A DNA stretch of 64,000 nucleotides from the IMG/VR virus record IMGVR_UViG_3300042296_001032; one strand, written 5' to 3'. The position numbers and the translations under genes were made by a program. Positions 48,868-64,000 of this stretch are shown here, one piece after another. Source of the stretch: a virus (taxonomy: Duplodnaviria; Heunggongvirae; Uroviricota; Caudoviricetes). Within the stretch, counting starts at the first letter, position 1. Each line of letters begins with the position of its first letter. Under the pieces are notes generated by a model. It did no database searches. It worked only from the letters and a program-made list of their open reading frames with translations, and was not told the DNA's origin.

Positions 48868-49272
48868 TTAAACTGTGATAGTTACAAAATCTACTTTATT
48901 TAATGCCCCTTCTGTTACAATATAATCTATCCTTACTACCGCGGAATGGTCTCCCTTACCATTGTATTCACTACTATCGGGTCTATCTACAGTTAATGTT
49001 GTTATTGTTAAATTTGGTATGTATTTACTAACTGCGTTTTGAACTTCGTTCCTAATGTCATCTCTAACTTGATTGTCGTTTGGTTCAAATAGAAATTGTT
49101 TTAGATTTGTACCAAAGTCGGGTAGATATAATCTATCCCCTGGTGTTGTTAATAAAAGATGTAATAAATCAGATTTAATAGCATCATAACTATTCTTATT
49201 CATTTTAAGAAAATAGTTTTTCGTATCGTCATCCCTAAATGGGAATGCTATGTTTATAAACCTTTCTGCCAT
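48868..49272 (-). CDS. Baseplate wedge subunit, T4 gp25 / P2 gpW-like
   Basis: IAFPF, LLLTTPGDRLYLPDFGTNLKQFLFEP; ATATTTAT at 49285-49292. Confidence 0.88.
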   Translation of the reverse strand: MAERFINIAFPFRDDDTKNYFLKMNKNSYDAIKSDLLHLLLTTPGDRLYLPDFGTNLKQFLFEPNDNQVRDDIRNEVQNAVSKYIPNLTITTLTVDRPDSSEYNGKGDHSAVVRIDYIVTEGALNKVDFVTITV

Positions 49273-49340
49273 TTCTTTTTATTTATAAATATTCAATTAT
49301 ACAATTTATACCATAAATATGAAATGTAAATTTTAAGCAT

Positions 49341-49365
49341 AAAAAACCCCTCGTGTGAGGGGTTT
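49341..49365 (-). terminator. Rho-independent terminator after the RNR gene
   Basis: AAACCCCTC-gtgt-GAGGGGTTT with an A6 run. Confidence 0.8.
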
Positions 49366-49411
49366 AATTTTTAACCATTACTTTTTATGATGTTATATAA
49401 AGTTATGAATA

Positions 49412-51274
49412 TTACTTCACTTCACATCCTGCTCCACCACTACAAGCCAACTCACCACTAAGGTCAGTATTATCAGAAAGTTCTACTACTTTAGATAAAT
49501 CTATGTTAGATAGAGATTTCATCATTCTATGGTAAGTTTCCTCATCACAATCTTCAAAAGGAGCTTGTTGGTAGGTACCTCCATTATAAGGTAAAACTGA
49601 CAATCCGTTATAGAATTTACGATTAGTCCACATCCATTCACCTGCCAAATCCCAATCTTCATCCTTCAATGAAATTGTTGCTGAAACGTTATGTGTATTT
49701 TGTCCTGTTCTATGTCCAGGTTTAATCCATTCTTGTGATACTTTTTTAACTCTTTCCAAAAGTTCAAAAGGTGACTCATGTCTAAGGATTGAGCCTAGTG
49801 GTGATTTTTGTGGTACAGAAATAACTGCTGTATCGTGTGGTCTAAATACTTCGTCCTCAACTAGTTCAGGGTGGTAGATAGAAAGGTATGTGTAAATAGC
49901 CTCATTTTTACCAACTCTAACTCTTCTAACATAATAATCGTTATGCCAAGCGTGAATACCTGAAGAAGTTCCAAGTGTTAATGATGTTGTACCAGCTGGT
50001 TTAACAGTTGTTGTTCTTGCTGCAGGATTAATATTAATTAAATTAGCTACTCTTTCATTTTCAGCGTTAACCATTTCAGCAGCTTCAGTCATATTATAAC
50101 CCAATACAACACCTGAACCAATTCCTGTCATTGATACCCCGATTAAGGCGTCTTTCTCGGTAGTTCGTTTCCATACATCTCTTAGGTAATGAAAATCTGT
50201 GTAACCAGCTTGTAACGTACCAATAAATGCTGCCGCTTTAACTCTCTCATTCAAGTCTTCTTGTGATTCAATGTTTGATACGTTAACCTCACAAAGATTA
50301 CAGAACTGATAAGGTCTAAGAGCAATTTCACAACAAGGGTTAGTTCCCCAATCTTTGTCGTAAGAAAAATAAATTCCAGGTTCACCAGCTCCAGATAACT
50401 CGACTCTTTTCCACAAATCCATAAAGAATTCTTTAGTGATTTTGTTTCTTAATAGAACTGCTGAGTTATTAGCTCTACCTCTTTGTGGATTAAGTTCCCA
50501 CCAAGGTCCTGATTTACACGAAATCATTTCATCATCGTCAGCTGAAAATAATGAGATAAGTGCTGCTCTTCTGATACCACCAGCTAATACTGCGTCAGCA
50601 ATGTGACATACAATATCATGTGTTTCTAGTGTTGTTAGTTTTTCTCTATCTACCTTAGCATCCAACACTTTTTTAATATTGTGAACACAATCTTTAAGTG
50701 GTTGTGGACCTGGTGCTTTACCACCTGATGTAACCAATAAAGCTCCTTTTGGTCTGATGTCTGAGAAATCAAAGATAGGTGTTGATGAATTAACCCCAAA
50801 ATAAGATTTCATCAAAACTTTGATTGCGTCAGCCCATCCTTCAATTGAATCACTAACTACATATCGTCTAGTTCTGTTTGGGTCTGGTTTTCTAATTTCA
50901 GGTAACTTATCAACGTGGTGTTTTTGTACTGAATAACCTACACCTGTACCCCCTAACAATAAGAACATTGTTTCTGGAAATGCATCAATGTGGTCAATCG
51001 GTAAGAAAGCACAGTTATAAACTCTGTTTGGTGAGATTTCAATTGGTCTCCCCCCAAACTGTAATGAACGCATGGATGGTAAAACTTTACGGTCATAAAC
51101 CATTTTATAAACGGTTTCAATTTCTTCTTTTAAATGAGAATATTTTTTTTGGTGCATTTCTTTGTTTCTTGTCACCAACTCTTCCCAAGTTTCTCTTCTT
51201 TGTTTTTCTGGTAAATACTTAGCGTATTTCATGTAGACAGTAATGTCTGATAGAATCTGATTTGATAATTCCAT
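49412..51274 (-). CDS. nrdJ: Class II (adenosylcobalamin-dependent) monomeric ribonucleotide reductase
   Basis: NCAF, GGTGVGY, GGIRRAALISL, TNPCCEI, TTVKPAGT, C-terminal CxxxxxC; no small subunit or activase gene nearby. Confidence 0.85.
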   Translation of the reverse strand: MELSNQILSDITVYMKYAKYLPEKQRRETWEELVTRNKEMHQKKYSHLKEEIETVYKMVYDRKVLPSMRSLQFGGRPIEISPNRVYNCAFLPIDHIDAFPETMFLLLGGTGVGYSVQKHHVDKLPEIRKPDPNRTRRYVVSDSIEGWADAIKVLMKSYFGVNSSTPIFDFSDIRPKGALLVTSGGKAPGPQPLKDCVHNIKKVLDAKVDREKLTTLETHDIVCHIADAVLAGGIRRAALISLFSADDDEMISCKSGPWWELNPQRGRANNSAVLLRNKITKEFFMDLWKRVELSGAGEPGIYFSYDKDWGTNPCCEIALRPYQFCNLCEVNVSNIESQEDLNERVKAAAFIGTLQAGYTDFHYLRDVWKRTTEKDALIGVSMTGIGSGVVLGYNMTEAAEMVNAENERVANLININPAARTTTVKPAGTTSLTLGTSSGIHAWHNDYYVRRVRVGKNEAIYTYLSIYHPELVEDEVFRPHDTAVISVPQKSPLGSILRHESPFELLERVKKVSQEWIKPGHRTGQNTHNVSATISLKDEDWDLAGEWMWTNRKFYNGLSVLPYNGGTYQQAPFEDCDEETYHRMMKSLSNIDLSKVVELSDNTDLSGELACSGGAGCEVK

Positions 51275-51303
51275 TTTTTAAATTTTTTATAAACTTTTAA
51301 TTA

Positions 51304-52719
51304 TTAATTAATACTTTCTTCAGTATCTTTTTGTTTTTTTCTGAGTTTTGCCATCTTCAATCTTTCACGAACATTCTCATCTTTTCTTTCCTCAACCTTT
51401 CTCTCATAACCTAAGAAAGTGTCTGAAGTTTCTGTATCAATGAATACTCGACCATTATCAAACGTACAATCCTCAAAGATAACACCATCTTTACCGAATC
51501 TAGATTTTAAAACCGCTATCGTTGCTCTATTGTTTTCTTTTTGTGTTAGAGTTCTTGCGATAGACATTATAAAGTGACCAATCTGAGCCTTTTTAATTGA
51601 CCCACCCATTTGGTCCCCTGTTACTACATCAGCTGAGATTGACGCCCTGTTACCTTGAACCGCTGTCCATCCCACCATACCATATTCAGCTAACATGGAT
51701 TCAAAACCTCTCATGACGTTACCCTCACCTGACCATTCATCGTTATATCTTCTTGCCGATTCAACACAGTCAATGTAATCTAATACAATCATGTCAGGTT
51801 TAAACCCAACTGAAATTAAATGTCTTACGTAGGTTTTAAGGTGATTAACCGTAACTCCTTCAGACGAAAACTTTCGAATAACTAAATCGTTTTCTTTACC
51901 ATTTGTTCTTTCTTTAATTACTTCCATGACTCTTTCTTCTTCGTCAGATAGAGAGTTAAGTTCTATCCCACTCCAACAAGCGGCATGTTTTCTTTTGATA
52001 ACATCAGGTATGTCTTCAAAAACAATTTGTAAAACATTATACCCCACATTATATGCGGTATTTGCTATTTTGGTTAGAATTGTTGTTTTACCAACACCAT
52101 AAGGTGCTAGAATAACCCCTAATTCTCCCCGTGATAAACCACCGTCAGTTAATTCGTCGATACCACTTATTCCCGTAGGAACTGGATGTCTAAAATCCTC
52201 TTGTAACACTGTATCCCAACCTTCGGTAATTGATGTCCCATCATCTTTTTCAGCTCCGATGGAAAGAGCTTCTTTCATTATATCTGCACACTCTTCATAC
52301 TTATCAAAATCACCGTCATCAATAATTTTTGATATCTTATCGTTGGCTTTTTTAAGTTCTTGTTGTCTACAGAAATTTAAGGCTTTATCCTGAACAAATT
52401 CCCAATCCTCAACACCTAGATTTCTTATTTCTTTTGTGATTTCAAACACATAATCTTGGGTTATCTTATCCTTAATTTCTACTTTTAGAATAGTTTCTAA
52501 TGTATCCCAAGCAGGAACTTTTTCAAATCTTTCAAAATAATCTTTTATTGTGGCAATAATCAACCTGAAATACTCATTATCAAAATATTTCGCGTGAACA
52601 ATATCGATAATTCTATCTGAGAATTTTTTATTTGCTGGATGTAGAATTTGATTAATAAACTCTGTTTGAAACTTATATCCTAAATAACCTAATGTAACTT
52701 CTTTACTCATACCCAACAT
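51304..52719 (-). CDS. Replicative helicase, DnaB/T4 gp41-like
   Basis: GELGVILAPYGVGKTT, IVLDYID, WTAVQGNR, KSRFG. Confidence 0.9.
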   Translation of the reverse strand: MLGMSKEVTLGYLGYKFQTEFINQILHPANKKFSDRIIDIVHAKYFDNEYFRLIIATIKDYFERFEKVPAWDTLETILKVEIKDKITQDYVFEITKEIRNLGVEDWEFVQDKALNFCRQQELKKANDKISKIIDDGDFDKYEECADIMKEALSIGAEKDDGTSITEGWDTVLQEDFRHPVPTGISGIDELTDGGLSRGELGVILAPYGVGKTTILTKIANTAYNVGYNVLQIVFEDIPDVIKRKHAACWSGIELNSLSDEEERVMEVIKERTNGKENDLVIRKFSSEGVTVNHLKTYVRHLISVGFKPDMIVLDYIDCVESARRYNDEWSGEGNVMRGFESMLAEYGMVGWTAVQGNRASISADVVTGDQMGGSIKKAQIGHFIMSIARTLTQKENNRATIAVLKSRFGKDGVIFEDCTFDNGRVFIDTETSDTFLGYERKVEERKDENVRERLKMAKLRKKQKDTEESIN

Positions 52720-52739
52720 TTATAATAATAAGTATATAT

Positions 52740-53177
52740 TTACAGTGCAATTCCACTATATTCCACACTAAAATTTTCTAAAGAAAATACTTCTTGTATT
52801 TCTTTGATTAAGGCAGGAATAATTTTACGAACATCCACAGAGTATCTTACACGTTGTGGATAAACGTTACCAGAGAACCTCTTTTTAACCACACATTTCT
52901 CATCAATCTTAATTTCAAAATCAAAAATGTCTTCATTATCATAAATGTTTTCAACTAGGATTTCTTCTTTGGTTTGTTCTTTGTAAGGGTTGTAATTTTT
53001 GTACAAGTATTCATAGGTTTTTTCTTTGAGGTCGTCCTCAATAAGTTTTACACAATCATTTACACAATCAGTTAATTCTAAAGAATTTAAAATTTTGTTA
53101 TTAAAATTTTTGATTGCGAAAAATCTTTGACAGATAATGTTCCCATTAATGTACAATACAAATTCAAATTTTTTCAT
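52740..53177 (-). CDS. Hypothetical protein
   Basis: 145-aa ORF; ATGA overlap with the upstream gene. Confidence 0.55.
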   Translation of the reverse strand: MKKFEFVLYINGNIICQRFFAIKNFNNKILNSLELTDCVNDCVKLIEDDLKEKTYEYLYKNYNPYKEQTKEEILVENIYDNEDIFDFEIKIDEKCVVKKRFSGNVYPQRVRYSVDVRKIIPALIKEIQEVFSLENFSVEYSGIAL

Positions 53178-54202
53178 TTTTTTTGGTTTTTAAAGTTTAA
53201 CTTTTCTTTTTTTAATAAATTAATAAATGGTTCCATGAAATTTAGGTAACCGTTTTCACCTCCAGGTATTACATACATTACTCCGTCTTCTATCATCATT
53301 TTTAAAACGTTTTTGTAATCTCTACCTTCGGGGTCTAATGGTAATTCTACTAAATTTCTAATTGATTCTCTAGCCTCTTCAGGTAATAAAGGGTTATTTA
53401 AATCAATTATTTTTTTATTTATTTCATAGAATGGTCCTTTATGGACTCCTCTAGATACACCGTTTAAGATGTTATCTAATGCTTTTAGTGGTGTCGTTCT
53501 TTCTTCTTGTATAAGTTTACTTGATTCGAATATTTCTTCTAATGTTACGTTACGTTCTTTTAGTTGTGGGAAGTGTGTTAAGAGTGTATTTTCAGTTACA
53601 CCATCAATACCCTTAACGTTATCACTTTTACATCCCTCAATCATCTTTATTAACCCAGCATTTGAATAATGGTGTTCAAAGAACCATTGGTAATTACCTA
53701 TACCAACCTCCATTCTTTTATCTGCTAAGAATATTGTAACGTTTTCATTAATCAATTGGCAAAGGTCTCTATCATTAGTGTAAATCATAACCTCCTCCAT
53801 CTTCTTTCTGTTTTGGCAATAGAAAGCTATTAAATCATCTGATTCAACATCGGGATGTTCATATTGTCTAATGAAAAGGTCCTCAGCGTATTGTTTAACT
53901 CTGAGTTTTTGGATTTCGTAATCTTGGTCAAAAAATCTAGGTCTGTTTTCTTTGTATTCAGGATAATAATCTAAACGCAAAGTACCACCTCTTTCACCGT
54001 CCCAAGTGATTACAGCTTTATCAATCTTATGTTCAGAGATTAATTTTCGTAAAGTACTATAAAAAGCAGATATACCACCAATGTGTTTGTCTTTATGGTA
54101 AACGTTCTTAGCTCCGTTATAAGAACGTTTCATAAGAACGTTACCATCGACAATTAGTGTTTTTGTTTTTTTAGGTTTACTCTTAGGAGTTCGTAGACCC
54201 AT
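53174..54202 (-). CDS. 5'-3' exonuclease / T4 RNase H-like (FEN family)
   Basis: LIVDGN, WDG, YKENR, ESDDLIA, NDRDL, SDNVKGI. Confidence 0.88.
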   Translation of the reverse strand: MGLRTPKSKPKKTKTLIVDGNVLMKRSYNGAKNVYHKDKHIGGISAFYSTLRKLISEHKIDKAVITWDGERGGTLRLDYYPEYKENRPRFFDQDYEIQKLRVKQYAEDLFIRQYEHPDVESDDLIAFYCQNRKKMEEVMIYTNDRDLCQLINENVTIFLADKRMEVGIGNYQWFFEHHYSNAGLIKMIEGCKSDNVKGIDGVTENTLLTHFPQLKERNVTLEEIFESSKLIQEERTTPLKALDNILNGVSRGVHKGPFYEINKKIIDLNNPLLPEEARESIRNLVELPLDPEGRDYKNVLKMMIEDGVMYVIPGGENGYLNFMEPFINLLKKEKLNFKNQKK

Positions 54203-54431
54203 CTTCCGAGAATTTAAAAGGTCCTACAATATTTCTTCTATTTAATTCATCTTCGGATTCTTCAAGAACACCTACCTCAAATAATAATTTTTTTTGCATA
54301 TCAGTAATTGTTTCCCCATGTAGTAATTTTTCAACTCCACTTTGGATTGTCCAAAAACAAGTCATTTGGTCACCTGATGATGTCAAAGCTTGTTCGTTAA
54401 GTACTTTCAATACATTATAATTAATTTTCAT
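54183..54431 (-). CDS. Small hypothetical protein
   Basis: Fills the gap between the recA-like and exonuclease genes. Confidence 0.45.
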   Translation of the reverse strand: MKINYNVLKVLNEQALTSSGDQMTCFWTIQSGVEKLLHGETITDMQKKLLFEVGVLEESEDELNRRNIVGPFKFSEDGSTNS

Positions 54432-54443
54432 CTTTGGTATTCT

Positions 54444-55502
54444 TTAAATAAGTCCGTCAATTTCTTCGTTTTCAAAATCGTTTTCAGATTCTTCAATAGC
54501 AAAATCCAAATCGTTTTCATCAACTTCTCCAAGTCCACTTTTAATAAACATGCTAATCCAATAATCAGCGTGTTCATCTTTGTAGTCTTTTTCTGCCTCT
54601 TTAGTATCCTCAATAAAATCATGAGGTGTTACAATTACTTTACCATCCTGATACCCAATTCCATTAACGTGATTTTTAAGGATTGAAATTTTGGAACGAG
54701 TTCCGTAATTAATACTTCTACCGTTTTTAGTAGCTTTCAATTTGTTTGTTCCAGCATTTTTTTGACTACCGAACAAGAAAATTAGAGTACTGTTAAGATA
54801 AATAGCTTCACCACCTTTCATTTTAATTCTTGGTTGACCCATTGGTGAATCAGGTAACTCTACCCAAGGCTGGTTAACAATGACTAAAGTGTTAGTATGC
54901 ATACTAGTTTCTTTTCTAGAACCCGTAATTCTACCATTAAGACCCATACCGATTTTATCAGCTAATACTGAAGCGTTATGCATCTTACCACCCTTACCGT
55001 CAAAAGTCATCTTACATGGAATAGAACCAACTGAATCCCAAAAGAAACAAATGTCTAATGGTTTACCATCTTTTTCCCATTTCTCTTTAGCTTGAGCTTC
55101 AAGAATTTCATTCATGTAATCAGTAATTTGTTCGATATATTCAAAGTCATCTTTAAAAATAAAGAACCCACCCCAATCACCTGGTGCAGTCTCAGTACAA
55201 TCAAACCCCATCAATTGGGCGTGTTTAAAACTCCATTTCTTTTCAGTGATAATAAAGATTGGTAAAATTCCGTTCTTCTGACACCAAATGGCACTCTTAA
55301 TGAGTGCCGTGGTCTTACCTGTATCAGAATGTCCTAAGAATACATTTAAGTGTCCAATAGCGGGACCAGGAACTCCTGTCGCTTGTTGGAACACTTTACC
55401 TAAATCGATAAAAGTATCGGGTTTATATTTGGTTTTCGATGAGAATCTATCTGAAATAGAATCCAAAGAAAACTCTTTTTTTGATATTGTTTTCTTAGCC
55501 AT
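54444..55502 (-). CDS. RecA/UvsX-like recombinase
   Basis: GHSDTGKTT Walker A, FFWDSVG Walker B, IVNQ, GGEAIY..S, KNH. Confidence 0.8.
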   Translation of the reverse strand: MAKKTISKKEFSLDSISDRFSSKTKYKPDTFIDLGKVFQQATGVPGPAIGHLNVFLGHSDTGKTTALIKSAIWCQKNGILPIFIITEKKWSFKHAQLMGFDCTETAPGDWGGFFIFKDDFEYIEQITDYMNEILEAQAKEKWEKDGKPLDICFFWDSVGSIPCKMTFDGKGGKMHNASVLADKIGMGLNGRITGSRKETSMHTNTLVIVNQPWVELPDSPMGQPRIKMKGGEAIYLNSTLIFLFGSQKNAGTNKLKATKNGRSINYGTRSKISILKNHVNGIGYQDGKVIVTPHDFIEDTKEAEKDYKDEHADYWISMFIKSGLGEVDENDLDFAIEESENDFENEEIDGLI

Positions 55503-55512
55503 GTAAATTTAA

Positions 55513-56397
55513 TTAAAACGGTTCTTCTTCATCGTAATCATCATCTTTAGCTGATGATGTTTTTGCTTTTTGTACTGGTGCTGATGGTTGTGTCTTGAAA
55601 GAAGATTCAGTTTCACTGTCATCACCTTTAGCGATAAACTTCTCAAGATTTTTATCCCACATAGGTGTTTCACCATCTGCAATAAGTTGTACATAATCCA
55701 ATGGTTGAGCTTTATAAATCTCTTTCCATGTCAATGTATCACCCATCCATTCTTTAGCGTTTGGAGATTTGGGGTCAGTCAATACTGATGGGTCCTCTGA
55801 CATAATAGAAGTAATCTTAGCATAACCTTTATTATCTTTACCGATAATAATAGTTAAATCTCTACCTTCTCTAGGGTCAGTAATATCACCTTTCTTAGTG
55901 AAAAGAGGGATGATTTTATCTAAGGCACCTTCACCTTTGTAGTTGTGTGGGAATCTCCAAAATTTAATCCCATCTTTTTCGTTAGCTCTATCAATGATTC
56001 TAGCTAAATAGAATTTTTTAGCTGAATACTGAGTTGCCAACTCTTTGTCTGTTTTGTTACCAGTTTCTTTCCATGATTTAAACAAATCATCAGAAACATC
56101 ACAAAGTGGACATTGTTCTCCGTCGTTGTGTTTTCTACAGTAGATTTTTCTCCACTTACCACCGACTTTAACACTGTGCCAATGCCCTTCATCAAAAGGA
56201 GTATCACCGTCTTTATTAACGGGATGAACACCATTCTTAGGTGGCATAATTCTGATAGTAGACTCTCCACTATCATGTCCGTCTTCAAGTCTAACAGCAA
56301 AATATTTACTGAAGTCTTGTTCGTATGAAGTACTCCCTCCACTGTTTCCAGTTTTGTTTTTTTCATACTGTTTCGCAATTGCGTCTAGTACACCCAT
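55513..56397 (-). CDS. Single-stranded DNA-binding protein, T4 gp32-like
   Basis: TIRIMP, H...C..H...CPLC zinc site, DITDPREGRDL, acidic tail. Confidence 0.8.
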   Translation of the reverse strand: MGVLDAIAKQYEKNKTGNSGGSTSYEQDFSKYFAVRLEDGHDSGESTIRIMPPKNGVHPVNKDGDTPFDEGHWHSVKVGGKWRKIYCRKHNDGEQCPLCDVSDDLFKSWKETGNKTDKELATQYSAKKFYLARIIDRANEKDGIKFWRFPHNYKGEGALDKIIPLFTKKGDITDPREGRDLTIIIGKDNKGYAKITSIMSEDPSVLTDPKSPNAKEWMGDTLTWKEIYKAQPLDYVQLIADGETPMWDKNLEKFIAKGDDSETESSFKTQPSAPVQKAKTSSAKDDDYDEEEPF

Positions 56398-56521: not shown

Positions 56522-57466
56522 TTACTTTTTTTTAAAATTTTTCAAAACCTCATCTCTAGTAATTTCTTTACGAGACAGTGATTTTATAACTTCTTCTTTA
56601 TCTTCTTTTGATAAATTCCTGAAAATTGATTCAATTTTACTTTTAGCAATATTTTGTTCTTCTTCACCTTCTTTTAAAACTCTTTTTTTTCGATTGTAAG
56701 ATTCAGGTACAAAAGAATTTTTAACATTCACATCATCAAAATCGTCAATATCTTCTGGTGTTAATTTATATTCAACTTCTTTACCATTAACATTTGATTC
56801 ACCACCAGAAATATCATAATGTTTATTTTGTGCCGCCTTTTCTGACCAATAGTCAGTAAGTTTCAAATTAAATGGATAACTATCTAATGAACGAAGTTCT
56901 AACTTTTCTTCAGGAGTTTTAATATCTTGTTCCAATTTAGAAATTTTAGAAGCTATTGTGTCCATCTTCATTATTTGTGACTCAAGATTAGATAGTTTAT
57001 CAGTTAAAGATTGTAAGAACTGACCATTCTCTTGTCCAACAGTTAAAGCTTGTCTAGCAAATTCTGTTGCTTCGTCAGATTTTTTGATGATGTCTGTAAC
57101 ATCTACTTCTTCAACATCAGAATCTTCATCTTCTAATTCATCAACAGCACTAAATTCATCTGCGGTACCAAACTCATCAGTTTCTTCTTCAGGTTCTTCA
57201 GTTGGTTCTTCCGTACCAAAATCATCAGTCCCTTCGGTATCTTCAGGATTGCCTTCATCACCAAAATCAAAATCAGTGTTTTCTTCTTCAGTACCAGCAT
57301 CTTCTTCAGTATCAGTACCTTCTTCATCGTCATCAGCATAATCACCATATTCATTTATAGAATATGTGTGTCTTCTAACTTCATTTAATTCGTTACCCTT
57401 AGACGGGTTGTAACCAAAAAGTTTTTTAAACCTTTCTAAGTCTTCGTTGATTTTAGTTTTTGCCAT
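56522..57466 (-). CDS. Acidic low-complexity hypothetical protein
   Basis: INEDLERFKKLFGY start, Asp/Glu-rich core, coiled coil. Confidence 0.6.
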   Translation of the reverse strand: MAKTKINEDLERFKKLFGYNPSKGNELNEVRRHTYSINEYGDYADDDEEGTDTEEDAGTEEENTDFDFGDEGNPEDTEGTDDFGTEEPTEEPEEETDEFGTADEFSAVDELEDEDSDVEEVDVTDIIKKSDEATEFARQALTVGQENGQFLQSLTDKLSNLESQIMKMDTIASKISKLEQDIKTPEEKLELRSLDSYPFNLKLTDYWSEKAAQNKHYDISGGESNVNGKEVEYKLTPEDIDDFDDVNVKNSFVPESYNRKKRVLKEGEEEQNIAKSKIESIFRNLSKEDKEEVIKSLSRKEITRDEVLKNFKKK

Positions 57467-57684: not shown

Positions 57685-58089
57685 TTATTCAGTAATCTTC
57701 TTCTTTAGTTGTAAAATATCTAATTCATTATTTTTAATTAAAATAATAGAGTTTTCGTATTTTGACCATTCTAAATTATATTCAGAATAGTTTACATTGC
57801 CGGAATTTAGGTTGAATTCTTTTTCGATTAATTTATTTAGAGCATTTATGGTAAAAAATGTTGTACCTTTTTTATGTATTTGTATTGTCTTAGGTAATTC
57901 TTTTCTAATGTCTATTTTTTGGTCGAATTCTAAAAATATTTTATAAGTTAATAATAAATCTTCTGTGTCTGTTTCAAAAACAAAAACTGAATTTTTTTTA
58001 ACACCAAAGGATTTGTATATTTTATATAGGAATTTATCTAGAGATGACGAATTAATAAATGTCGCGACTAATAATATCTTCTTTTGCAT
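57685..58089 (-). CDS. Hypothetical protein
   Basis: 134-aa ORF. Confidence 0.55.
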   Translation of the reverse strand: MQKKILLVATFINSSSLDKFLYKIYKSFGVKKNSVFVFETDTEDLLLTYKIFLEFDQKIDIRKELPKTIQIHKKGTTFFTINALNKLIEKEFNLNSGNVNYSEYNLEWSKYENSIILIKNNELDILQLKKKITE

Positions 58090-58618
58090 TTAAGTACGGG
58101 ATATATTTTATATCGATTTTACCTAAATTTTTAGGTAATTCTTCGTATTTTTTTAATGTTATTAATTCTGTAATTTTATCCTTTAAATCCCAAGAAATAA
58201 AAGACAAAAGACCCATATCTATGTGATGAATTGTTTTACCACAATAAATATAAAGTCTATTCGAATATAAATATCCGTCACATCCCGCAACGTTCTCTTT
58301 TACATAATTTAAATAATCCTTTTCCGTATTAAAATCTAATGGATTTAAATTATTTATTTTGATTTTACTAGTCATATTTTCTAGTGAATCTTCTAAAAAA
58401 GTTTTTAAATGTTCTTCAAAAATTTTTCTCTTTTCTCTAGGTGAAAAAGTCCAGTAAGTAGTATCATTAATTATATGATTTAAAATAGAAGCACCCTTAG
58501 ATTTAGCTAAATCCCAACCAACAATTATCTCAATCAAACCATTATCAAAAGACATGATATCGTTCATATATGGTTTAACCAAATCTATATCGTCTGTTGT
58601 AATTTTAATGATGTTCAT
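58052..58618 (-). CDS. Hypothetical protein
   Basis: 188-aa ORF. Confidence 0.5.
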   Translation of the reverse strand: MNIIKITTDDIDLVKPYMNDIMSFDNGLIEIIVGWDLAKSKGASILNHIINDTTYWTFSPREKRKIFEEHLKTFLEDSLENMTSKIKINNLNPLDFNTEKDYLNYVKENVAGCDGYLYSNRLYIYCGKTIHHIDMGLLSFISWDLKDKITELITLKKYEELPKNLGKIDIKYIPYLNAKEDIISRDIY

Positions 58619-58658: not shown

Positions 58659-61196
58659 TTAACTCTTATTATCTTTGATTCTTTTCATTTGTTTTTTAAA
58701 CCATTCATCATTACTGTTGTGAGCTTTTGTTTGTGTGTCAAAATAAGGGTCTATTTCATTACTAGAACTATTTAAAGGCCACAATAAAGTCCAACCTAAA
58801 TCTGTATATTGTTTATAATAAGATTTCATTTGACTAAGTGTAGTATTAGAAACACTTCCCCAACCACGAGTACCAGGTAAAATATATAATGTAGCGTTAG
58901 GGAATTTTTTTCTAACCAAATCAGTATATGCTTTAATATCTTTCTTGGTACTATCCTTTGTTGGATACCCGTCATTAGTACCAATACCTACTTGGAAGAA
59001 TGATTCTACACTTGTGTAAACATTACCGTCTCCATTAATTTGTTGTTTTAACCAAGAGAGTGTTTTACCACCACAGTTATAGTATACGTATATATTATTA
59101 CTAGTTAAGTTACCGTAAGTACTAGATTTACTCATACCATTAAGGGTCCCAACACTTGAAGAACCAACAATAGCGTTTTTAGCGTTAGCTAAAGTACCAC
59201 CACCATTAAGACCAAATTTAACAGAACTACTACAATTTTTTGGTTCTGGTGGTTTTCCTGTACCACCCCCACCAGTTGGTGTTTTACCACAACTATCAAA
59301 CACGTTTTGTGCAAAAGCACTTCTTTTTTTCCATTCAGCCTCTGTTTGACAAAATTCACATCTTTCCCATTTTTGAGCAACATATTTTGCTGCTTTATAA
59401 ACTGTATCTTCACTTTTAAATTTTTCAAATTTTTTACCACCTTCTGATACAGTTAACCAATATATTAAATAACCATAATTAATTTCATCTGTTGCTGGTT
59501 TTGTTTTTAAATCAAAACCTTTAGTACTTGCATATTCTATAAAATCATTTTTTAATGTATAGAAAGTCCATTGTGCCCAACCATAACCTTCTTCATCTTC
59601 CCCACCTTTAGAAAATGTAGTTCCATTCCATCCACCAGATTCTGTTATAAGTCCCCTTGGTTTTCTCCCTTTTCTATCTTGTATTCTATCAGGTATTAAA
59701 CCTGATTCAGCAATTAAATTACCAATAATACCAGCGGCCTGTGCATCAGTTATACCCAAATCACCCTTAAGTCTTCCTATAATCTCACAACCTTTAGCGT
59801 TTGTATCAACACTATTAAATACTGAAATATCACCACCACTATAATCACCACTATCAGTAGTACTTCCATTACCATTAGTATTAGTGGTAGTTGTATCAGT
59901 TTGTACTACTTCAACTAAAGCTAAATCAATTAAACTCAAAGCTTCAGTTACAACAGGTACGGTTACTTTGGGTTGTCTCATACCAGTAAATTCAGTAGTA
60001 ATTTTATTATTTGTTATTGTATGGCTAACGGCATTAATTAGATAAGTACCTCTAAACATTGGTACGTTTTCTAATTTAAAATACATTAAAGGTTGTATTG
60101 ACATATTACCCAAACCTGAAACCGTACAATTATAAGCCCTTGTTAAATAAACATCATACATGTTATTACCTTTACCAATTTGTGATGGGTTTGAGCCACT
60201 ATTAGGATTTGTTAAGGCATCTATTATTTGTAAAGATTCTTGTGTTTCTTTAAATTCTGTTTGGTCTAACTCTATTGAGTTAAAATGATTTTGTGCTTCT
60301 TGCCCATATCTAACTTTAAAAACAACTAAACCCTCACCTTCTTTAGTGTATTCAACCGGTAAATCTACTGTATTTGTAATATCAAAAGAGTCATCAACAT
60401 ATTCAAAATTACCACCATTAACACTACAAGTATTACTATTGTCTTTTAAATCAGCTAGAGACCTAGAACTACCCCCAATATGAACACAAACAAATGATGG
60501 TCCTGGATGTACCTTATCTATAAATGTTAATGGTCTAAAAATATCTTTTACTTGTTCATTTGTTAATGATACTGTTGATAAATCAATGTTTGCTGGTAAT
60601 GGCCAAAAATCAAAATTGTTTTTACTTAATAAACTTGTCAATGACTCATATAGTGATTGTGTTGGCCCTTGTCCGTTTTTGGTACTAGCTAAATTAGAAA
60701 GGTATGAAAAGTCTATAACTGCTTTTTTACCCACGTCTTGATTTGCTCTATTAATAAATTTAAAATGTTCATATAACATTCTATCATCTTCTTCACCGTA
60801 ATTATTAAAGAAATAACCAGAAGATTTATTTACACTATCATAAGAATTAGATACCCATTTATCATAAAATGATTTAAATGAACGATATAATGAAAGTTTA
60901 ACATCTGGGTCACTTGACATGTTATCCTCAATAGAGTTATTATTTGTATTTTGTGTAATTGATTCAATAATTTTTTTGGAATTGTCTGTCACCGCTTGAA
61001 TAAACCCATCAACATAAGAACTTAATTCATCCTCAGATATATAAAAATCTTCACCAAAATCTTCGGGGTGAATAGCAGAAAAAACTTTAGGTGAAGAAGA
61101 TATGAGCCTATATTTAGAATCAGTTACAAATAATTCTTCATACAGTTCTTTGTTTTTATCTTTTTTTAATCCTACTAATCTTGTGTTATCACTCAT
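58659..61196 (-). CDS. Baseplate-hub/Tal-like protein, cassette A: tail lysozyme plus SGNH-like domain
   Basis: Hub-like GNMSIQP..YFKL..VPMFRGTYLINAVSHTI; QAAGIIGNLIAESG...GYGWAQWT (phage tail lysozyme); IVGSSS...GG.T...GTNDG. Confidence 0.7.
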   Translation of the reverse strand: MSDNTRLVGLKKDKNKELYEELFVTDSKYRLISSSPKVFSAIHPEDFGEDFYISEDELSSYVDGFIQAVTDNSKKIIESITQNTNNNSIEDNMSSDPDVKLSLYRSFKSFYDKWVSNSYDSVNKSSGYFFNNYGEEDDRMLYEHFKFINRANQDVGKKAVIDFSYLSNLASTKNGQGPTQSLYESLTSLLSKNNFDFWPLPANIDLSTVSLTNEQVKDIFRPLTFIDKVHPGPSFVCVHIGGSSRSLADLKDNSNTCSVNGGNFEYVDDSFDITNTVDLPVEYTKEGEGLVVFKVRYGQEAQNHFNSIELDQTEFKETQESLQIIDALTNPNSGSNPSQIGKGNNMYDVYLTRAYNCTVSGLGNMSIQPLMYFKLENVPMFRGTYLINAVSHTITNNKITTEFTGMRQPKVTVPVVTEALSLIDLALVEVVQTDTTTTNTNGNGSTTDSGDYSGGDISVFNSVDTNAKGCEIIGRLKGDLGITDAQAAGIIGNLIAESGLIPDRIQDRKGRKPRGLITESGGWNGTTFSKGGEDEEGYGWAQWTFYTLKNDFIEYASTKGFDLKTKPATDEINYGYLIYWLTVSEGGKKFEKFKSEDTVYKAAKYVAQKWERCEFCQTEAEWKKRSAFAQNVFDSCGKTPTGGGGTGKPPEPKNCSSSVKFGLNGGGTLANAKNAIVGSSSVGTLNGMSKSSTYGNLTSNNIYVYYNCGGKTLSWLKQQINGDGNVYTSVESFFQVGIGTNDGYPTKDSTKKDIKAYTDLVRKKFPNATLYILPGTRGWGSVSNTTLSQMKSYYKQYTDLGWTLLWPLNSSSNEIDPYFDTQTKAHNSNDEWFKKQMKRIKDNKS
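61153..61196. repeat. 44-nt exact direct repeat, copy 1 (start of cassette A)
   Basis: Identical to 63178-63221 by base-by-base comparison. Confidence 0.9.
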
Positions 61197-61235
61197 ATTA
61201 CTTTATTATTTTTTTAACTAAAACAGATAGTATAA

Positions 61236-63221
61236 TTAAGCTTTTGTATAAGCTAAAAAATATTGTCTTAATTGTTTTTTAGGGTCTTCTAAATAACCAG
61301 TTGCCATTATATTTTTATTATAAATAATTTTTGGTGAAACCCAATTTGCGTATTCTGGGTTTTGGCTTTTTAATGTCGGTATTTGTGAATCTGCTCTGTC
61401 TGAATAGTTTCCAGAAGATATACTACCTATTGAACCTCTAGTAGCTACTCCAATGTAAGATTTTTCGTCAGTACTTTTTTCTATTGTAACTGCCCAACTA
61501 ACAAAATAATTAGTCCAATCTATATTAATTTCTATTTTTGAAACTTTTACTTTAACACCCTTACTATTTATTTCTTTTATTACAGTGTTAACACCTTTTC
61601 CAGCATAAACTCCACCCTGTGTACCAACTTTAACTCTATTACTAAAATTAGCTGGTACTGCTGATTCAGTAAACATATAACCACCAAAATTATCACTTTT
61701 TCTAGTATTAAAAGAGTGTAAGGCGTCTCCACCTAAATCTTTAGCCGTATAACATCCTTTTATGATTACTGGGAAGGACCCATCATTTTTAACACTATTT
61801 AAAGAAGTTGTTACACAATCATCAATTCCACTGAATGTTGTTACTGTAGATTCGTCATAATTATTATCAGTTGTTGTGGTTGTTGTGGTTCCTCCACCTC
61901 CAGTGTTATTTAAATTCGTGTCTCCTTGTACTGTTTCAACTAAAGATAAATCTAATATACTCAAAGCTTCGGTCACAATTGGTACCGTAATTATTGGTTG
62001 TCTTGTTGCTGTAAAAGTTGTTTTAGCGTTATGTGGTACGATTGTGTGTGATACATCTGTAATTAGATAAGTACCTCTAAACATTGGGATATTTTCTAAT
62101 TTAAAAAACATTGTGGGTTGTATTTGCATGTTACCCAAAGTCTCAACCTTACAAGTGTAACCTCTAGTTAAGTTAACATCATATAAATTATTACCCTTAC
62201 CAATTTGTGTTGGGTCCGAACCACTACTTGGGTTTACCAAAGCGTCAATTACCAAAAGTGAATCTTGTGTTTCCCTAAACTCAGCTTGGTCTAACTCCAC
62301 TTTAATAAAGTGGTTTTGGGTTTCTTGTCCGTATCTAACTTTAAAAGCCACAATACCACTTGTTTTATCGTTATTAAAATCTTGGGGGTAAGTGGTTGGG
62401 TCAAATATGTCAAAAGAATCATCTTTATATTCAAAATTAGTTCCGTTAGTACCACAATAAGACCTAGGTATATCTAAACTTCTAGAACTACCACCAATAA
62501 ACATACACACAAATTTAGGGTTTGCTCTCATTTTAGTTAGTGGACCATCAAAAGCTCTAAACATATCTTCTAATTCACTTGTATTTGCGTCTGAATATTT
62601 AATATACCCAGGTAATGGTAAGAAATTAAAATTATTTTTACTTAAAACTCCAGTTATAGATTCGTATAGTGATTGTGTAGGTCCTTGCCCATTTTTGGTA
62701 CTAGCTAAATTAGAAAGGTAAGCAAAATCTATAACAGCCTTTTTACCTATGTCAGTACCACATCTATTAACAAAATTAAAATGTTCGTATAACATTCTTT
62801 CGTCAGTTTTTTCTGCTGAATATGCATTATAAAAATAATTAGATGTTTGTTGTTGGTTATATTCTGAACTAGAAATCCATTTATCGTAAAGAGATTTAAA
62901 TGAGCGATATAAAGAAAGTTTTAGGTCTGTGTCATTTAAAGCAGAATCAGCTATATTATCGTTATTATCTGTATTTTGTGTGATGGAATCAATGATTTTT
63001 TGAGAGTTATCGGTCACCGCTTGAATAAATCCATCAATATAAGAACCTAGTTCATCCTCTGAAATATAAAAATCTTCTCCAAAATCTTCAGGGTGAATTG
63101 CACTAAAAACTTTAGGTGATGAAGAAATTAAACGGTATTTAGAATCAGTTACAAATAATTCTTTGTACAGTTCATCATTTTTATCTTTTTTTAATCCTAC
63201 TAATCTTGTGTTATCACTCAT
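61236..63221 (-). CDS. Baseplate-hub/Tal-like protein, cassette B: unrecognised C-terminal domain
   Basis: First ~430 aa closely parallel cassette A; unrelated after a Gly/Thr linker. Confidence 0.65.
   Translation of the reverse strand: MSDNTRLVGLKKDKNDELYKELFVTDSKYRLISSSPKVFSAIHPEDFGEDFYISEDELGSYIDGFIQAVTDNSQKIIDSITQNTDNNDNIADSALNDTDLKLSLYRSFKSLYDKWISSSEYNQQQTSNYFYNAYSAEKTDERMLYEHFNFVNRCGTDIGKKAVIDFAYLSNLASTKNGQGPTQSLYESITGVLSKNNFNFLPLPGYIKYSDANTSELEDMFRAFDGPLTKMRANPKFVCMFIGGSSRSLDIPRSYCGTNGTNFEYKDDSFDIFDPTTYPQDFNNDKTSGIVAFKVRYGQETQNHFIKVELDQAEFRETQDSLLVIDALVNPSSGSDPTQIGKGNNLYDVNLTRGYTCKVETLGNMQIQPTMFFKLENIPMFRGTYLITDVSHTIVPHNAKTTFTATRQPIITVPIVTEALSILDLSLVETVQGDTNLNNTGGGGTTTTTTTDNNYDESTVTTFSGIDDCVTTSLNSVKNDGSFPVIIKGCYTAKDLGGDALHSFNTRKSDNFGGYMFTESAVPANFSNRVKVGTQGGVYAGKGVNTVIKEINSKGVKVKVSKIEINIDWTNYFVSWAVTIEKSTDEKSYIGVATRGSIGSISSGNYSDRADSQIPTLKSQNPEYANWVSPKIIYNKNIMATGYLEDPKKQLRQYFLAYTKA
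63178..63221. repeat. 44-nt exact direct repeat, copy 2 (start of cassette B)
   Basis: Identical to 61153-61196. Confidence 0.9.
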
Positions 63222-63275
63222 TATTTTTATCTTATTTTTTTAATCCTATTAATTTTTTTTATCACCCATAATATT

Positions 63276-64000
63276 TTATGTACCATCTATTGACCAGTGC
63301 CAAGCCTCACCGTTGTAATTAATAAATCCGTATTTTGAGGCGTTATTAACCAACCAATTAAAACAAACATATTCGTTTGGTTTTTTAGAAGCACCATTTG
63401 CGGCACACCAAGCTGAATCGTGTTTATAACAAATTGTCGACCCATTACAACCAAAATCTATTGCAAATCCACTTTGGTGTCTTGACCTCCCTGGTGTGGC
63501 AGTATCAGGGTCACAATTACCTTTTACATAAACACCTGTTTTATAACACCCATTAGCTTTAGCCGTATTTATTTGGTCTTCCATTGTTCTAAAGTTACTA
63601 CCACAAGTTAATGGTACACCATCCGCTTGTGCGGCATTAACCATATTATTTAAATTTTCCGCCATTTTGACGTTTATAAGTGCACCTTTTACCTTACATA
63701 ACCTAATTTTAAATAATTTACCACCGGTATAAGCGTCACCAACACCACCATCTGTTATACCGTCTATTTTAGGGCATTGTTCATTTGAACTATCTCCATA
63801 AACAGTATCGTCTATGAATATTTGGTTGGCTGGTAATATTGTAGTTGTAGTTGTGGTTCCTCCACCTCCCCCACCAGTGTTACCTAAAGCAGCATCTCCT
63901 TGTAGTGTTTCAGCTAGAGCTAGGTCAATCAAACTCAAAGCTTCTGTTACAATAGGTACGGTGACTATTGGTTGTCTCACACCTTTAAATGTTGTTTCTA
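63276..64000 (-). CDS. C-terminal part of a third hub/Tal-like protein with a peptidase M15 (VanY-like) domain; 5' end outside the window
   Basis: Frame is open to the window edge (ETTFKGVRQP...); SRHQSGFAID (SxHxxGxAxD) and EAWHW motifs. Confidence 0.75.
   Translation of the reverse strand, partial: ETTFKGVRQPIVTVPIVTEALSLIDLALAETLQGDAALGNTGGGGGGTTTTTTILPANQIFIDDTVYGDSSNEQCPKIDGITDGGVGDAYTGGKLFKIRLCKVKGALINVKMAENLNNMVNAAQADGVPLTCGSNFRTMEDQINTAKANGCYKTGVYVKGNCDPDTATPGRSRHQSGFAIDFGCNGSTICYKHDSAWCAANGASKKPNEYVCFNWLVNNASKYGFINYNGEAWHWSIDGT

What the first reader, a model, noticed from the sequence alone, without database searches (positions are those of the whole stretch)
58659..64000. Tandem baseplate-hub cassettes with a constant body and swappable wall-degrading tips
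Seen: three consecutive minus-strand genes share a constant segment ending T.F.G/A.RQP..TVP.VTEALS..DL.L.E, then a Gly/Thr linker (about 59820-59900, 61860-61920, 63840-63890), then unrelated tips. The two complete genes begin with the same 44 nt (MSDNTRLVGLKKDKN) and stay closely similar for ~430 aa, with many third-position changes. No small immunity-like ORFs lie between them. Known: the constant C-terminal part resembles the last domain of gp27/gp44/VgrG-type hubs; tip A is a phage tail lysozyme, tip C an M15 peptidase. The layout of an upstream gene followed by constant-plus-variable modules is that of Rhs/CdiA/MafB orphan cassettes. Inference: either a recombination reservoir that swaps the enzymatic tail tip for different host envelopes, or co-expressed paralogues forming a mixed hub trimer with several enzymes. 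The synonymous divergence favours translated products.
Basis: partly seen in the sequence, partly recalled or inferred. Interest (0 to 1): 0.85.

Follow-up and report, generated by a model that had tools for sequence, protein, structure and literature searches.

The report
Split phage tail hub, three enzyme-tipped copies
A large uncultured phage makes three sister versions of the tail-tip "hub" protein, each carrying a different cell-wall-attacking module on a flexible linker; they are the detached end of a giant tail protein that most relatives make in one piece, and the fragment left behind ends in a self-cleaving Hint domain seen only where the gene is split.

Summary
Three adjacent minus-strand genes (C 642 aa, only partly in the window; B 661 aa; A 845 aa) share a ~432-aa body (67-74% identity), then a Gly/Thr linker, then unrelated tips: a VanY/M15 peptidase (C), an unknown domain (B), and a phage tail lysozyme plus an SGNH-like esterase (A).

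Body residues ~140-415 model as gp27/gp44/gpD/VgrG hub domains. In an unbiased search of the PDB the top 29 matches are all tail-tip hubs, though Z is only 5.4-7.5.

New findings:
- **Origin.** Most of about 2,000 related protein clusters carry this body inside one giant tail protein. Here that gene is split. The 1,725-aa upstream gene is the N-terminal part and ends in a Hint domain. Hint occurs in 8 of 10 split relatives checked and in none of 110 fused giants.
- **Adaptor.** The first ~115 residues evolve in concert within each of 11 genomes, while the hub part is orthologous by position.
- **Tips.** Tips were replaced at the linker at least four times.

All three genes are intact, closely spaced and under purifying selection. 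They are most likely co-expressed subunits that fit one socket, not silent Rhs-type cassettes. This is a new variant of tail-associated lysins and evolved VgrGs. The scan had not reported it on other DNA.

The parts
58659..61196 (-). Gene A, 845 aa: adaptor + hub body + linker + lysozyme + SGNH-like esterase. It is the last copy of the array.
   Evidence: ORF; translation; falls in the 'last-position' clade of the hub tree.
59901..61196 (-). Gene A constant body (residues 1-432). The N-terminal adaptor (residues 1-115) is at 60852-61196.
   Evidence: 67-69% identical to the bodies of B and C.
59787..59900 (-). Gene A Thr/Gly/Asn/Ser-rich linker (residues 433-470).
   Evidence: Sequence; homology to the paralogues ends here.
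59295..59777 (-). Gene A tip, domain 1: Phage_lysozyme2 (PF18013), residues 474-634.
   Evidence: Pfam E 2.4e-20, 73.6 bits against a cut-off of 28.2.
58662..59249 (-). Gene A tip, domain 2: SGNH/GDSL-hydrolase-like domain, residues 650-845.
   Evidence: ESM Atlas feature score 0.93 and structural TM 0.68-0.70 to GDSL families. No Pfam hit, so this is a lead, not a membership.
61236..63221 (-). Gene B, 661 aa: adaptor + hub body + linker + unknown tip. It is the middle copy.
   Evidence: ORF; translation.
62877..63221 (-). Gene B N-terminal adaptor (residues 1-115), predicted helical. This is the region that evolves in concert.
   Evidence: AF2 helices at 16-25, 55-96 and 98-115; within-genome identity 87-100% in the first 60 residues; every genome is monophyletic in the adaptor tree.
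61977..62804 (-). Gene B hub domains (residues 140-415) with a gp27/gpD/VgrG-like fold.
   Evidence: VIA Z 5.4-7.5 to 29 hub proteins in an unbiased search; second look; AFDB E down to 6e-7.
61857..61925 (-). Gene B Gly/Thr linker (residues 433-455).
   Evidence: Sequence; homology to the closest orthologues (88% and 83% identical bodies) stops just before it.
61239..61856 (-). Gene B tip (residues 456-661), unknown fold. Related domains occur in free-standing 405-508 aa proteins.
   Evidence: No Pfam hit. Homologues at 44-64% identity, one of them encoded directly after a fused giant hub gene. Weak ConA-like lectin lead, score 0.84.
63276..64000 (-). Gene C, C-terminal 240 of 642 aa: end of body (63909-63998), Gly/Thr linker (63840-63908), VanY tip. 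It is the first copy, and its start lies outside the window.
63294..63677 (-). Gene C tip: VanY / peptidase M15 domain. The H-x6-D and E-x-x-H metal and catalytic motifs are present.
   Evidence: Pfam VanY E 3.4e-14. The motifs were read from the translation; their meaning rests on my own knowledge of family M15.
58052..58618 (-). Conserved 188-aa gene that follows the hub gene or array in both split and fused relatives.
   Evidence: Homologue within 22-500 nt (about 1,600-2,050 nt in L012-L015) after the last body-bearing ORF in 21 of the 37 related loci checked. Synteny.
57685..58089 (-). Conserved 134-aa gene that overlaps the end of the 188-aa gene and keeps the same synteny.

Best explanation
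The three genes are intact, co-transcribed paralogues. Each encodes the hub-forming end of a giant tail-tip protein.

Each product has four parts: (i) a ~115-aa helical adaptor, (ii) gp27-like hub domains, (iii) a Gly/Thr linker, and (iv) a different wall-directed module. The modules are a VanY DD-peptidase in C, an unknown and possibly binding domain in B, and a lysozyme plus SGNH-like esterase in A.

Most relatives make adaptor, hub and tip as one polypeptide with the large protein encoded upstream. In this clade the gene was cut in a flexible linker and the distal part was duplicated.

Inferred steps:
- All copies dock through their near-identical adaptors onto the same partner, the 1,725-aa upstream protein.
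- They fill the three hub positions at the tail tip, as mixed trimers or as a mix of virions.
- The tail therefore carries complementary enzymes that open the peptidoglycan during injection.
- The upstream protein's C-terminal Hint domain probably cleaves itself off at its Cys1. This would be Hedgehog-type N-terminal cleavage, which frees the end that was once joined to the hub.

Shown: gene structure, fold, split origin, concerted adaptor evolution, tip replacement, and the association of Hint with the split state.
For: - **Fold.** The AF2 model built on 86 sequences has pLDDT 70. In a search of 48,161 PDB representatives made without Foldseek, the top 29 rows are all tail-tip hubs, including the pyocin R2 hub, Mu gp44, P1, lambda J, T5 pb3 and eCIS VgrGs. 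Z is 5.4-7.5 over model residues ~140-415. T4 gp27 scores Z 7.2 in the second look at Foldseek's matches. AFDB hits reach E 6e-7, and named rows include GPD, Vgr, Tip-attachment-J and YqbQ-like.
- **Context.** The array follows a tape-measure-like gene, a 1,457-aa gene, a LysM/gp53-like 104-aa gene and the 1,725-aa gene.
- **Split origin.** 2,025 representative clusters match the body, and most listed hits are 1,300-3,650 aa proteins with the body internal. Fused giants align colinearly across the end of the upstream protein and the start of the body.
- **Functional copies.** pN/pS is about 0.17-0.21 over 0.43-0.54. There is no terminator between the genes.
- **Common socket.** The adaptor tree makes every one of 11 genomes monophyletic, at the minimum possible 10 changes, and 0 of 200 shuffles are as low. 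The hub tree splits by array position with 100% support. Within-genome pN is 0.00-0.09 in codons 1-60, even where pS is 0.5-0.7.
- **Complementary set.** A fused relative carries Lyz2 and VanY on one polypeptide, and a tip-B-like protein is encoded next to it.
- **Hint.** Cys1 and the T/S-x-x-H motif are conserved in the six aligned sequences of one Hint type, and the C-terminal Asn is not. Both Hint types also begin with Cys. Hint is present in 8 of 10 split loci checked and in 0 of 110 fused giants.
Against: - Z scores of 5-7.5 are in the range the tool calls common. The case for the fold rests on the uniformity of the hit list and on gene context.
- Body residues 1-140 do not match the first tube-like hub domain, and no Pfam hub model hits.
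- Nothing here shows that the proteins are in virions or that they form trimers.
- Relatives with two copies cannot form a 1:1:1 trimer.
- Tip B has no demonstrated activity.
- Hint cleavage is inferred from conserved residues only.
- Two split relatives (L009, L044) lack Hint, so it is not essential for docking.
Confidence: 0.68

Rival explanations
1. Alternative hubs, one kind per virion. Each particle carries a homotrimer of a single paralogue, so a burst holds three sorts of virion suited to different wall states (bet-hedging).
For: TP901-1 produces a mixed virion population by processing Tal at a Gly-rich motif just before its catalytic domain (PMC11409707). Serratia VgrG1 and VgrG2 do not form heterotrimers under native conditions (PMC4924876). 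The hub parts of the paralogues have diverged to 55-83% identity, which could disfavour mixed rings.
Against: Near-identical adaptors give the shared partner no means of sorting the copies. A fused relative puts lysozyme and VanY on every protomer, which suggests the activities are needed together.
Confidence: 0.22
2. Recombination reservoir. Only one copy is used, and the others are stored cassettes that recombine through the constant region to change the tip, as with Rhs/CdiA/MafB orphans.
For: There are gene-conversion tracts between copies: codons 1-40 have pS 0.08-0.29, and one C/B tract has pN 0. Some genomes have pS 0 in the adaptor. Tips were replaced at the linker four times among 11 genomes. 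A Hint domain, which acts as a releasing peptidase in polymorphic toxins (own knowledge), sits upstream.
Against: All copies are full length, with their own ATG and A-rich leader, and are under purifying selection along the whole body. The upstream gene has no constant region to recombine with. Conversion is confined to the 5' end and has not moved tips: positions 1 and 3 keep their tips in four related arrays. There are no immunity genes.
Confidence: 0.05
3. Covalent re-joining. The Hint domain of the upstream protein forms a thioester, and the N-terminus of any of the paralogues resolves it. This would ligate one N-part to alternative C-parts and restore the ancestral giant protein after translation.
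For: Hint is found only where the gene is split, exactly at the break, and in two different Hint types. The residues for the first acyl shift are conserved, and the C-terminal Asn is not. The stop codon of the upstream gene overlaps the ATG of the first copy. The adaptors are homogenised.
Against: There is no conserved nucleophile at residue 2 of the body proteins, which is Ser, Ala or Gly. L009 and L044 lack Hint but keep homogenised adaptors. To my knowledge no natural Hint-mediated ligation of two separately translated proteins has been described.
Confidence: 0.05

Closest known systems
Tail-associated lysins (Tal) of siphophages such as TP901-1 and Tuc2009, and T4 gp27-gp5
   Same: A gp27-type hub domain at the tail tip is followed by peptidoglycan hydrolase domain(s). 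In TP901-1 Tal a glycine-rich motif precedes the catalytic domain and is a processing site (PMC11409707).
   Different: Here there are 2-3 tandem paralogues, each with a different enzyme. The hub part is the detached end of a giant protein. The first ~140 residues are a helical adaptor, not the first hub domain. No Pfam or PHROG model recognises the body.
Evolved VgrG paralogues of type VI secretion, for example V. cholerae VgrG-1/-2/-3 (own knowledge) and Serratia VgrG1/2 (PMC4924876)
   Same: Several hub/spike paralogues in one system share a constant core and carry different C-terminal effector domains, including a wall hydrolase. Mixed and separate trimers are both documented.
   Different: Those are cellular weapons, the paralogues are usually dispersed, and they include the gp5-like spike. 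This is a virion part, arranged in tandem, with no spike repeat detected and an N-terminal adaptor that evolves in concert.
Multi-tailspike phages with a conserved N-terminal anchor and swapped C-terminal receptor-binding or depolymerase modules (own knowledge)
   Same: A conserved N-terminal docking module is followed by a horizontally exchanged C-terminal module, with several versions per genome.
   Different: Those are peripheral receptor-binding proteins. Here the principle applies to the central hub and to wall-degrading enzymes.
Polymorphic toxin loci (Rhs, CdiA, MafB) with Hint-type releasing peptidases and orphan cassettes (review PMC4436062, found but not read)
   Same: A large upstream protein, a Hint domain just before the variable part, and an array of constant-plus-variable modules.
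   Different: The copies are complete genes rather than 5'-truncated orphans. There are no immunity genes. The constant region is absent from the upstream gene. Hint is terminal, with nothing fused downstream.
Hedgehog/Hog-type and bacterial intein-like (BIL) Hint domains (own knowledge)
   Same: Cys1 and T-x-x-H are conserved, and there is no obligatory C-terminal Asn plus +1 nucleophile. This is the pattern of N-terminal cleavage without splicing.
   Different: The location is the C-terminus of a phage tail protein, exactly at a gene-fission point. Two searches of the held full-text library found no description of this.

Membership tests
gp27 / gpD / gp44 / VgrG / Tal baseplate-hub superfamily | Hub-domain fold (the domains after the first tube-like barrel) | tested here: met
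   Model residues 140-415 align with hub residues ~120-350 of T4 gp27, Mu gp44, the pyocin R2 hub, P1 and others at Z 5.4-7.5. These are the top 29 of 48,161 chains. AFDB E down to 6e-7.
gp27 / gpD / gp44 / VgrG / Tal baseplate-hub superfamily | N-terminal tube-like first hub domain in the same polypeptide | tested here: inconclusive
   Residues 1-140 model as helices at low to medium confidence and match only coiled coils.
gp27 / gpD / gp44 / VgrG / Tal baseplate-hub superfamily | Recognition by curated sequence models (Pfam Phage_GPD and related; PHROG hub families) | tested here: not met
   No Pfam or PHROG hit to the body. No Phage_GPD hit in the record. A profile search against PDB sequences found nothing.
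gp27 / gpD / gp44 / VgrG / Tal baseplate-hub superfamily | Encoded in the tail module downstream of the tape measure | tested here: met
   The order is tape-measure-like 931 aa, 1,457 aa, LysM/gp53-like 104 aa, 1,725 aa, then the array. The same order holds in relatives.
gp27 / gpD / gp44 / VgrG / Tal baseplate-hub superfamily | Trimer around the tail axis | not testable with these tools
   Three bodies exceed the 1,000-residue limit of the complex tool.
Virion-associated peptidoglycan hydrolases | Recognisable wall-hydrolase domain with catalytic motifs | tested here: met
   Tip C: VanY E 3.4e-14, with H-x6-D and E-x-x-H present. Tip A: Phage_lysozyme2 E 2.4e-20. Tip B is not met.
Rhs/CdiA/MafB-type orphan cassette arrays | Main gene contains the constant region; downstream copies are 5'-truncated and lack starts | tested here: not met
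   All three copies start with ATG and are full length. The upstream gene has no body homology.
Rhs/CdiA/MafB-type orphan cassette arrays | Immunity gene after each variable tip | tested here: not met
   The spacers are 54 and 39 nt with no ORF.
Inteins (protein splicing) | Cys/Ser1 and the block B T-x-x-H motif | tested here: met
   Cys1 and the His-Pro of block B are invariant in the six aligned sequences, with T or S at position -3. Pfam Intein_splicing E 1.4e-6 (28.7 bits, below the 35.8 cut-off), Hint E 2.9e-5 (24.2 bits, below the 29.7 cut-off) and AXH (36.9 bits, above its 33 cut-off).
Inteins (protein splicing) | Terminal His-Asn followed by a Cys/Ser/Thr +1 residue of a C-extein | tested here: not met
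   The domain ends the protein, with 0-3 residues after the His-Asn position. The final residues vary (HN, YN, HS, KE). No reading frame joins it to gene C.

The most novel reading that the evidence does not exclude
The terminal Hint domain does more than remove itself. It activates the C-terminus of the upstream tail protein as a thioester, and the docked N-terminus of any body paralogue resolves that thioester. One N-terminal half would then be covalently ligated to two or three alternative C-terminal halves, a natural post-translational form of alternative splicing of a virion protein. The evidence does not exclude this. Hint occurs only at the fission point of split genes, in two unrelated Hint types, with the first-step residues conserved. 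The adaptors of all paralogues are kept identical.
Probability: 0.06. Interest if true: 0.95.

Novelty: new variant of a known kind. Interest (0 to 1): 0.62.

Why it matters
- **A large unannotated hub family.** The body matches about 2,000 clusters at 50% identity. No Pfam or PHROG model covers it, and three tblastn searches of 50,697 GenBank phage records found no match. It belongs to the central tail hub and wall-piercing device of an abundant lineage of large aquatic phages, which earlier notes assign to Bacteroidota; I did not test the host.
- **A natural experiment in modular design.** One gene was cut in a linker and its distal part duplicated. The docking adaptor is kept uniform within each genome, while the enzymatic tips are exchanged. 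This gives defined boundaries for building tail-borne lysins and for predicting which parts carry host specificity.
- **A testable question about Hint.** The strict link between gene fission and a terminal Hint domain asks what autoprocessing does in tail assembly. The candidates are removal of a cap, timing of docking, or ligation.

Tried and rejected
Searches and jobs that gave nothing:
- Pfam and PHROG scans of the body.
- Profile searches of the body against PDB sequences: none with A1 and one chance-level row with A2.
- tblastn of three divergent bodies against 50,697 GenBank phage records: no match.
- The first AF2 model, built on 38 sequences, was too poor (pLDDT 56). It was redone with 86 sequences.
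- Complex prediction with the upstream protein's C-terminal domain plus Hint against the adaptor returned no verdict (score 0.02). It counts neither for nor against binding.
- The Atlas and phmmer on the N-terminus of the upstream protein gave no named family.
- The sigma-70 promoter scan found fewer sites than in shuffled sequence, and no terminator was found within the array.
- No PAAR or Phage_GPD in the record. One sub-threshold Phage_base_V hit lies elsewhere.
- Pfam on eight unassigned tips and two separate tip-like genes found nothing above threshold.

Ideas considered and dropped:
- A frameshift or readthrough joining Hint to gene C. No frame gives a Ser/Thr/Cys after the His-Asn.
- A split intein with the body N-terminus as the C-terminal intein piece. 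The Hint ends in an intein-like C-terminal block, matching Pfam Intein_splicing positions 6-155 of 155, and residue 2 of the bodies is Ser, Ala or Gly.
- An assembly artefact. The same array is present in independent assemblies.
Full report
**1. The observation**

The window is the reverse strand of positions 108218-172217 of a 226,303-nt IMG/VR virus record. Its GC content is about 30%.

- Three minus-strand ORFs fill 58659-64000: gene A (845 aa), gene B (661 aa) and the last 240 codons of gene C.
- A and B are 67% identical over residues 1-434 and show no similarity after that.
- All three genes start with the same 44 nt.
- The spacers between the genes are 54 and 39 nt.
- Nei-Gojobori counts over the body give pS 0.43-0.54 and pN 0.17-0.21, which indicates purifying selection on all three.
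- Pfam assigns Phage_lysozyme2 to tip A and VanY (clan M15) to tip C, and nothing to tip B or to the body. PHROGs also has no family for the body.

One correction is needed. The rest of the record (locus L004) shows that gene C is 642 aa with the same design, not a longer parent gene.

**2. What the constant body is**

The body has many relatives: 75 proteins in the word-indexed search and 2,025 representative clusters at E <= 0.001 in the exhaustive search.

A model built on 38 sequences was poor (pLDDT 56). One built on 86 sequences reached pLDDT 70 and pTM 0.60.

- Foldseek against the PDB gave only weak E-values (from 1.3e-3), but almost all rows were baseplate hubs.
- A VIA second look gave Z 5-7.5 to 43 hub proteins over model residues ~140-415, against hub residues ~120-350. 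T4 gp27 scored Z 7.2 and Mu gp44 Z 6.5.
- The unbiased VIA search of 48,161 PDB representatives put hub proteins in all of the top 29 rows. These include the pyocin R2 hub, eCIS VgrGs, P1, lambda J, T5 pb3 and the GTA hub.
- AlphaFold DB clusters gave E down to 6e-7, with named rows 'late control gene D', 'Vgr family', 'Tip attachment protein J' and 'YqbQ-like'.

The Z values alone are in a range the tool warns is common. The uniform hit list and the gene context make a hub fold for residues ~140-415 the well-supported reading.

The context is a tape-measure-like gene, a 1,457-aa gene with an OmpA-like domain, a 104-aa LysM/gp53-like gene, a 1,725-aa gene, and then the array.

Residues 1-140 are predicted helical and do not match the first hub domain.

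**3. The array is the detached end of a giant protein**

Most family members are proteins of 1,300-3,650 aa. The body sits internally and is followed by a 300-600 aa tip.

The N-terminal part of these giants is homologous to the 1,725-aa gene just upstream of the array. Fused giants align colinearly across the end of that protein and the start of the body. The break therefore falls in a variable, low-complexity linker.

Stand-alone bodies in 2-3 tandem copies occur only in the clade that includes this record. They were seen in 11 genomes or contigs, G000 included: L005, L009, L010, L043-L046 and L048-L050.

The stop codon of the upstream gene overlaps the ATG of gene C.

**4. A Hint domain marks the break**

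The upstream protein ends in a ~155-aa Hint domain. Pfam gives AXH, Intein_splicing and Hint hits at residues ~1570-1723.

- The same domain, or a different Vint-type Hint, ends the upstream protein in 8 of the 10 split loci where that gene's end could be read (G000, L005, L010, L043, L045, L046, L048, L049). It is absent in L009 and L044.
- HMMs of both Hint types hit none of 110 fused giants, nor the ORFs of the fused loci (Pfam on six giants).
- Cys1 and the His-Pro of block B are invariant in the six aligned sequences of the AXH/intein-like type, with Thr or Ser at position -3. The C-terminal His-Asn is not conserved. Only 0-3 residues follow the His-Asn position.

This is the pattern of a Hint that performs the N-S acyl shift and N-terminal cleavage, as in Hedgehog or bacterial intein-like domains (own knowledge). 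It is not the pattern of a splicing intein.

I infer self-removal, which would leave the upstream protein ending at the residue before Cys1. Why this is tied to the split state is unexplained.

**5. Concerted adaptor, orthologous hub**

In every genome the first ~60 residues of the paralogues are 87-100% identical to each other. Across genomes they are only 33-73% identical, even between copies with the same tip. Residues 140-432 are 55-83% identical within a genome. Between the close relatives G000 and L005, this region is more similar in copies at the same position than in paralogues of one genome.

Trees make this explicit.

- The hub part splits with 100% support into a last-position clade, with one copy from each of 11 genomes, and a first-position clade. 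No genome is monophyletic (22 label changes).
- In the tree of residues 1-115 every genome is monophyletic. It needs 10 changes, the minimum possible, and 0 of 200 shuffles are as low.

Within genomes, pN in codons 1-60 is 0.00-0.09. pS ranges from 0 (L043, and one L045 pair) to 0.5-0.7 (L005, L009).

The uniformity therefore comes from episodic gene conversion plus strong constraint. In the window itself, codons 1-40 have pS 0.08-0.29, and a C/B tract has pN 0.

The simplest reading is that all paralogues must fit one genome-specific partner. That partner is most likely the upstream protein to which the body was once fused.

**6. Tips**

- **Tip C** has the M15 metal and catalytic motifs (their meaning rests on my own knowledge).
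- **Tip A** carries PF18013 and a C-terminal SGNH/GDSL-like domain. The Atlas gives a feature score of 0.93 and TM 0.68-0.70. This is a lead, not a membership.
- **Tip B** has no family. A ConA-like lectin lead at 0.84 is weak.

Across relatives the Pfam-assigned tips include VanY, PF18013, Amidase_2, GH24, M74 and M23, and many are unassigned.

Positions 1 and 3 keep their tips across four close arrays, with full-length identity of 66-79%. The middle copy behaves differently. Its body is 88% and 83% identical to the L050 and L049 copies, but homology stops at the end of the body and the tips are unrelated.

Three more pairs of bodies at 78-83% identity have unrelated tips. One control pair is homologous over its full length.

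Tip-B-like domains (44-64% identity) occur in free-standing 405-508 aa proteins. One of these is encoded directly after a fused giant whose single tip carries both PF18013 and VanY.

So the same set of functions is kept at this locus, either on one chain or spread over three.

**7. How it most likely works**

- **Shown:** three intact, constrained, closely spaced genes; a hub fold; origin by fission; a common adaptor; modular tips.
- **Inferred:** the three products are made together and dock through the adaptor on the trimeric upstream protein. They complete the hub at the tip of the tail tube. On contraction they present a peptidase, a glycosidase plus esterase, and an unknown module to the peptidoglycan on flexible linkers.

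Whether a single tail holds a mixed trimer or each tail holds one kind cannot be decided here. Identical adaptors argue for mixing. Both modes have precedents: heterogeneous virions from Tal processing in TP901-1 (PMC11409707) and separate VgrG trimers in Serratia (PMC4924876).

The Rhs-like reservoir reading is unlikely, for the reasons listed under membership.

**8. Comparison and novelty**

It works like tail-associated lysins and like evolved VgrG sets. It shares the anchor-plus-swappable-module logic of multi-tailspike phages.

It fails sequence-model membership of the hub families and lacks a recognisable first hub domain. I therefore file it as a new variant of the hub-lysin kind, not as a member of a curated family.

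Three tblastn searches found no cultured phage in GenBank carrying the domain. Three searches of the held full-text library, which omits most subscription journals, found no description of tandem hub paralogues, of a hub gene split with adaptor homogenisation, or of a Hint domain at such a split.

Earlier notes of this scan on the same genome gave the lineage context (T4-like, probably a Bacteroidota host). They also noted the unknown tip B but not this system.

**9. Limits**

- There are no expression, virion or activity data.
- The structural inference rests on one medium-confidence model.
- The upstream protein could not be folded.
- The complex job gave no verdict.
- The Hint-fission link rests on 10 split loci that are related to each other, so the number of independent events is smaller. 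The two Hint types suggest at least two.

Noticed in passing
L004:7838-13015 (G000:C1:101837-107014, just outside the window): The 1,725-aa protein upstream of the array ends in a ~155-aa Hint domain (Cys1 at residue 1572). Only two residues follow its His-Asn. Its stop codon overlaps the ATG of gene C.
   Followed up: yes
L004:3124-7497: A 1,457-aa protein lies between the tape-measure-like gene and the LysM-like gene. It carries an OmpA-type peptidoglycan-binding domain (residues 834-898, E 8.9e-7), which is unusual for a tail-module protein.
   Followed up: no
window 57685-58618: Overlapping 188-aa and 134-aa genes follow the hub gene or array in both split and fused relatives (21 of 37 related loci for the 188-aa gene). 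Neither has a known family. They may be further tip or assembly parts.
   Followed up: partly
L009:7365-8306, L045:11104-12027, L046:4746-5723: In three relatives one body copy has only a ~50-65 aa stub after the hub and is followed by a separate 307-325 aa gene with no Pfam family. This may be a second round of fission that detached the tip itself.
   Followed up: partly
L051:117-7988 (same contig as L015): A fused 2,623-aa giant hub carries both Phage_lysozyme2 and VanY in one tip. A 508-aa protein with a tip-B-like domain is encoded right after it.
   Followed up: partly
window 48868-56397: A replication cluster (gp32-like SSB 55513-56397, DnaB-like helicase 51304-52719, class II-like RNR 49412-51274) separates the hub module from a gp25-like baseplate wedge gene (48868-49272) and the large ORFs after it.
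   Followed up: partly
window 56522-57466: A 314-aa protein with a long Asp/Glu/Thr-rich acidic stretch in its N-terminal half and no family hit.
   Followed up: no
G000:C1:37840-37929 (L052): A sub-threshold Phage_base_V (spike OB-fold) hit (E 0.003) in a 449-aa ORF. It is a possible separate central spike, far from the hub module.
   Followed up: no
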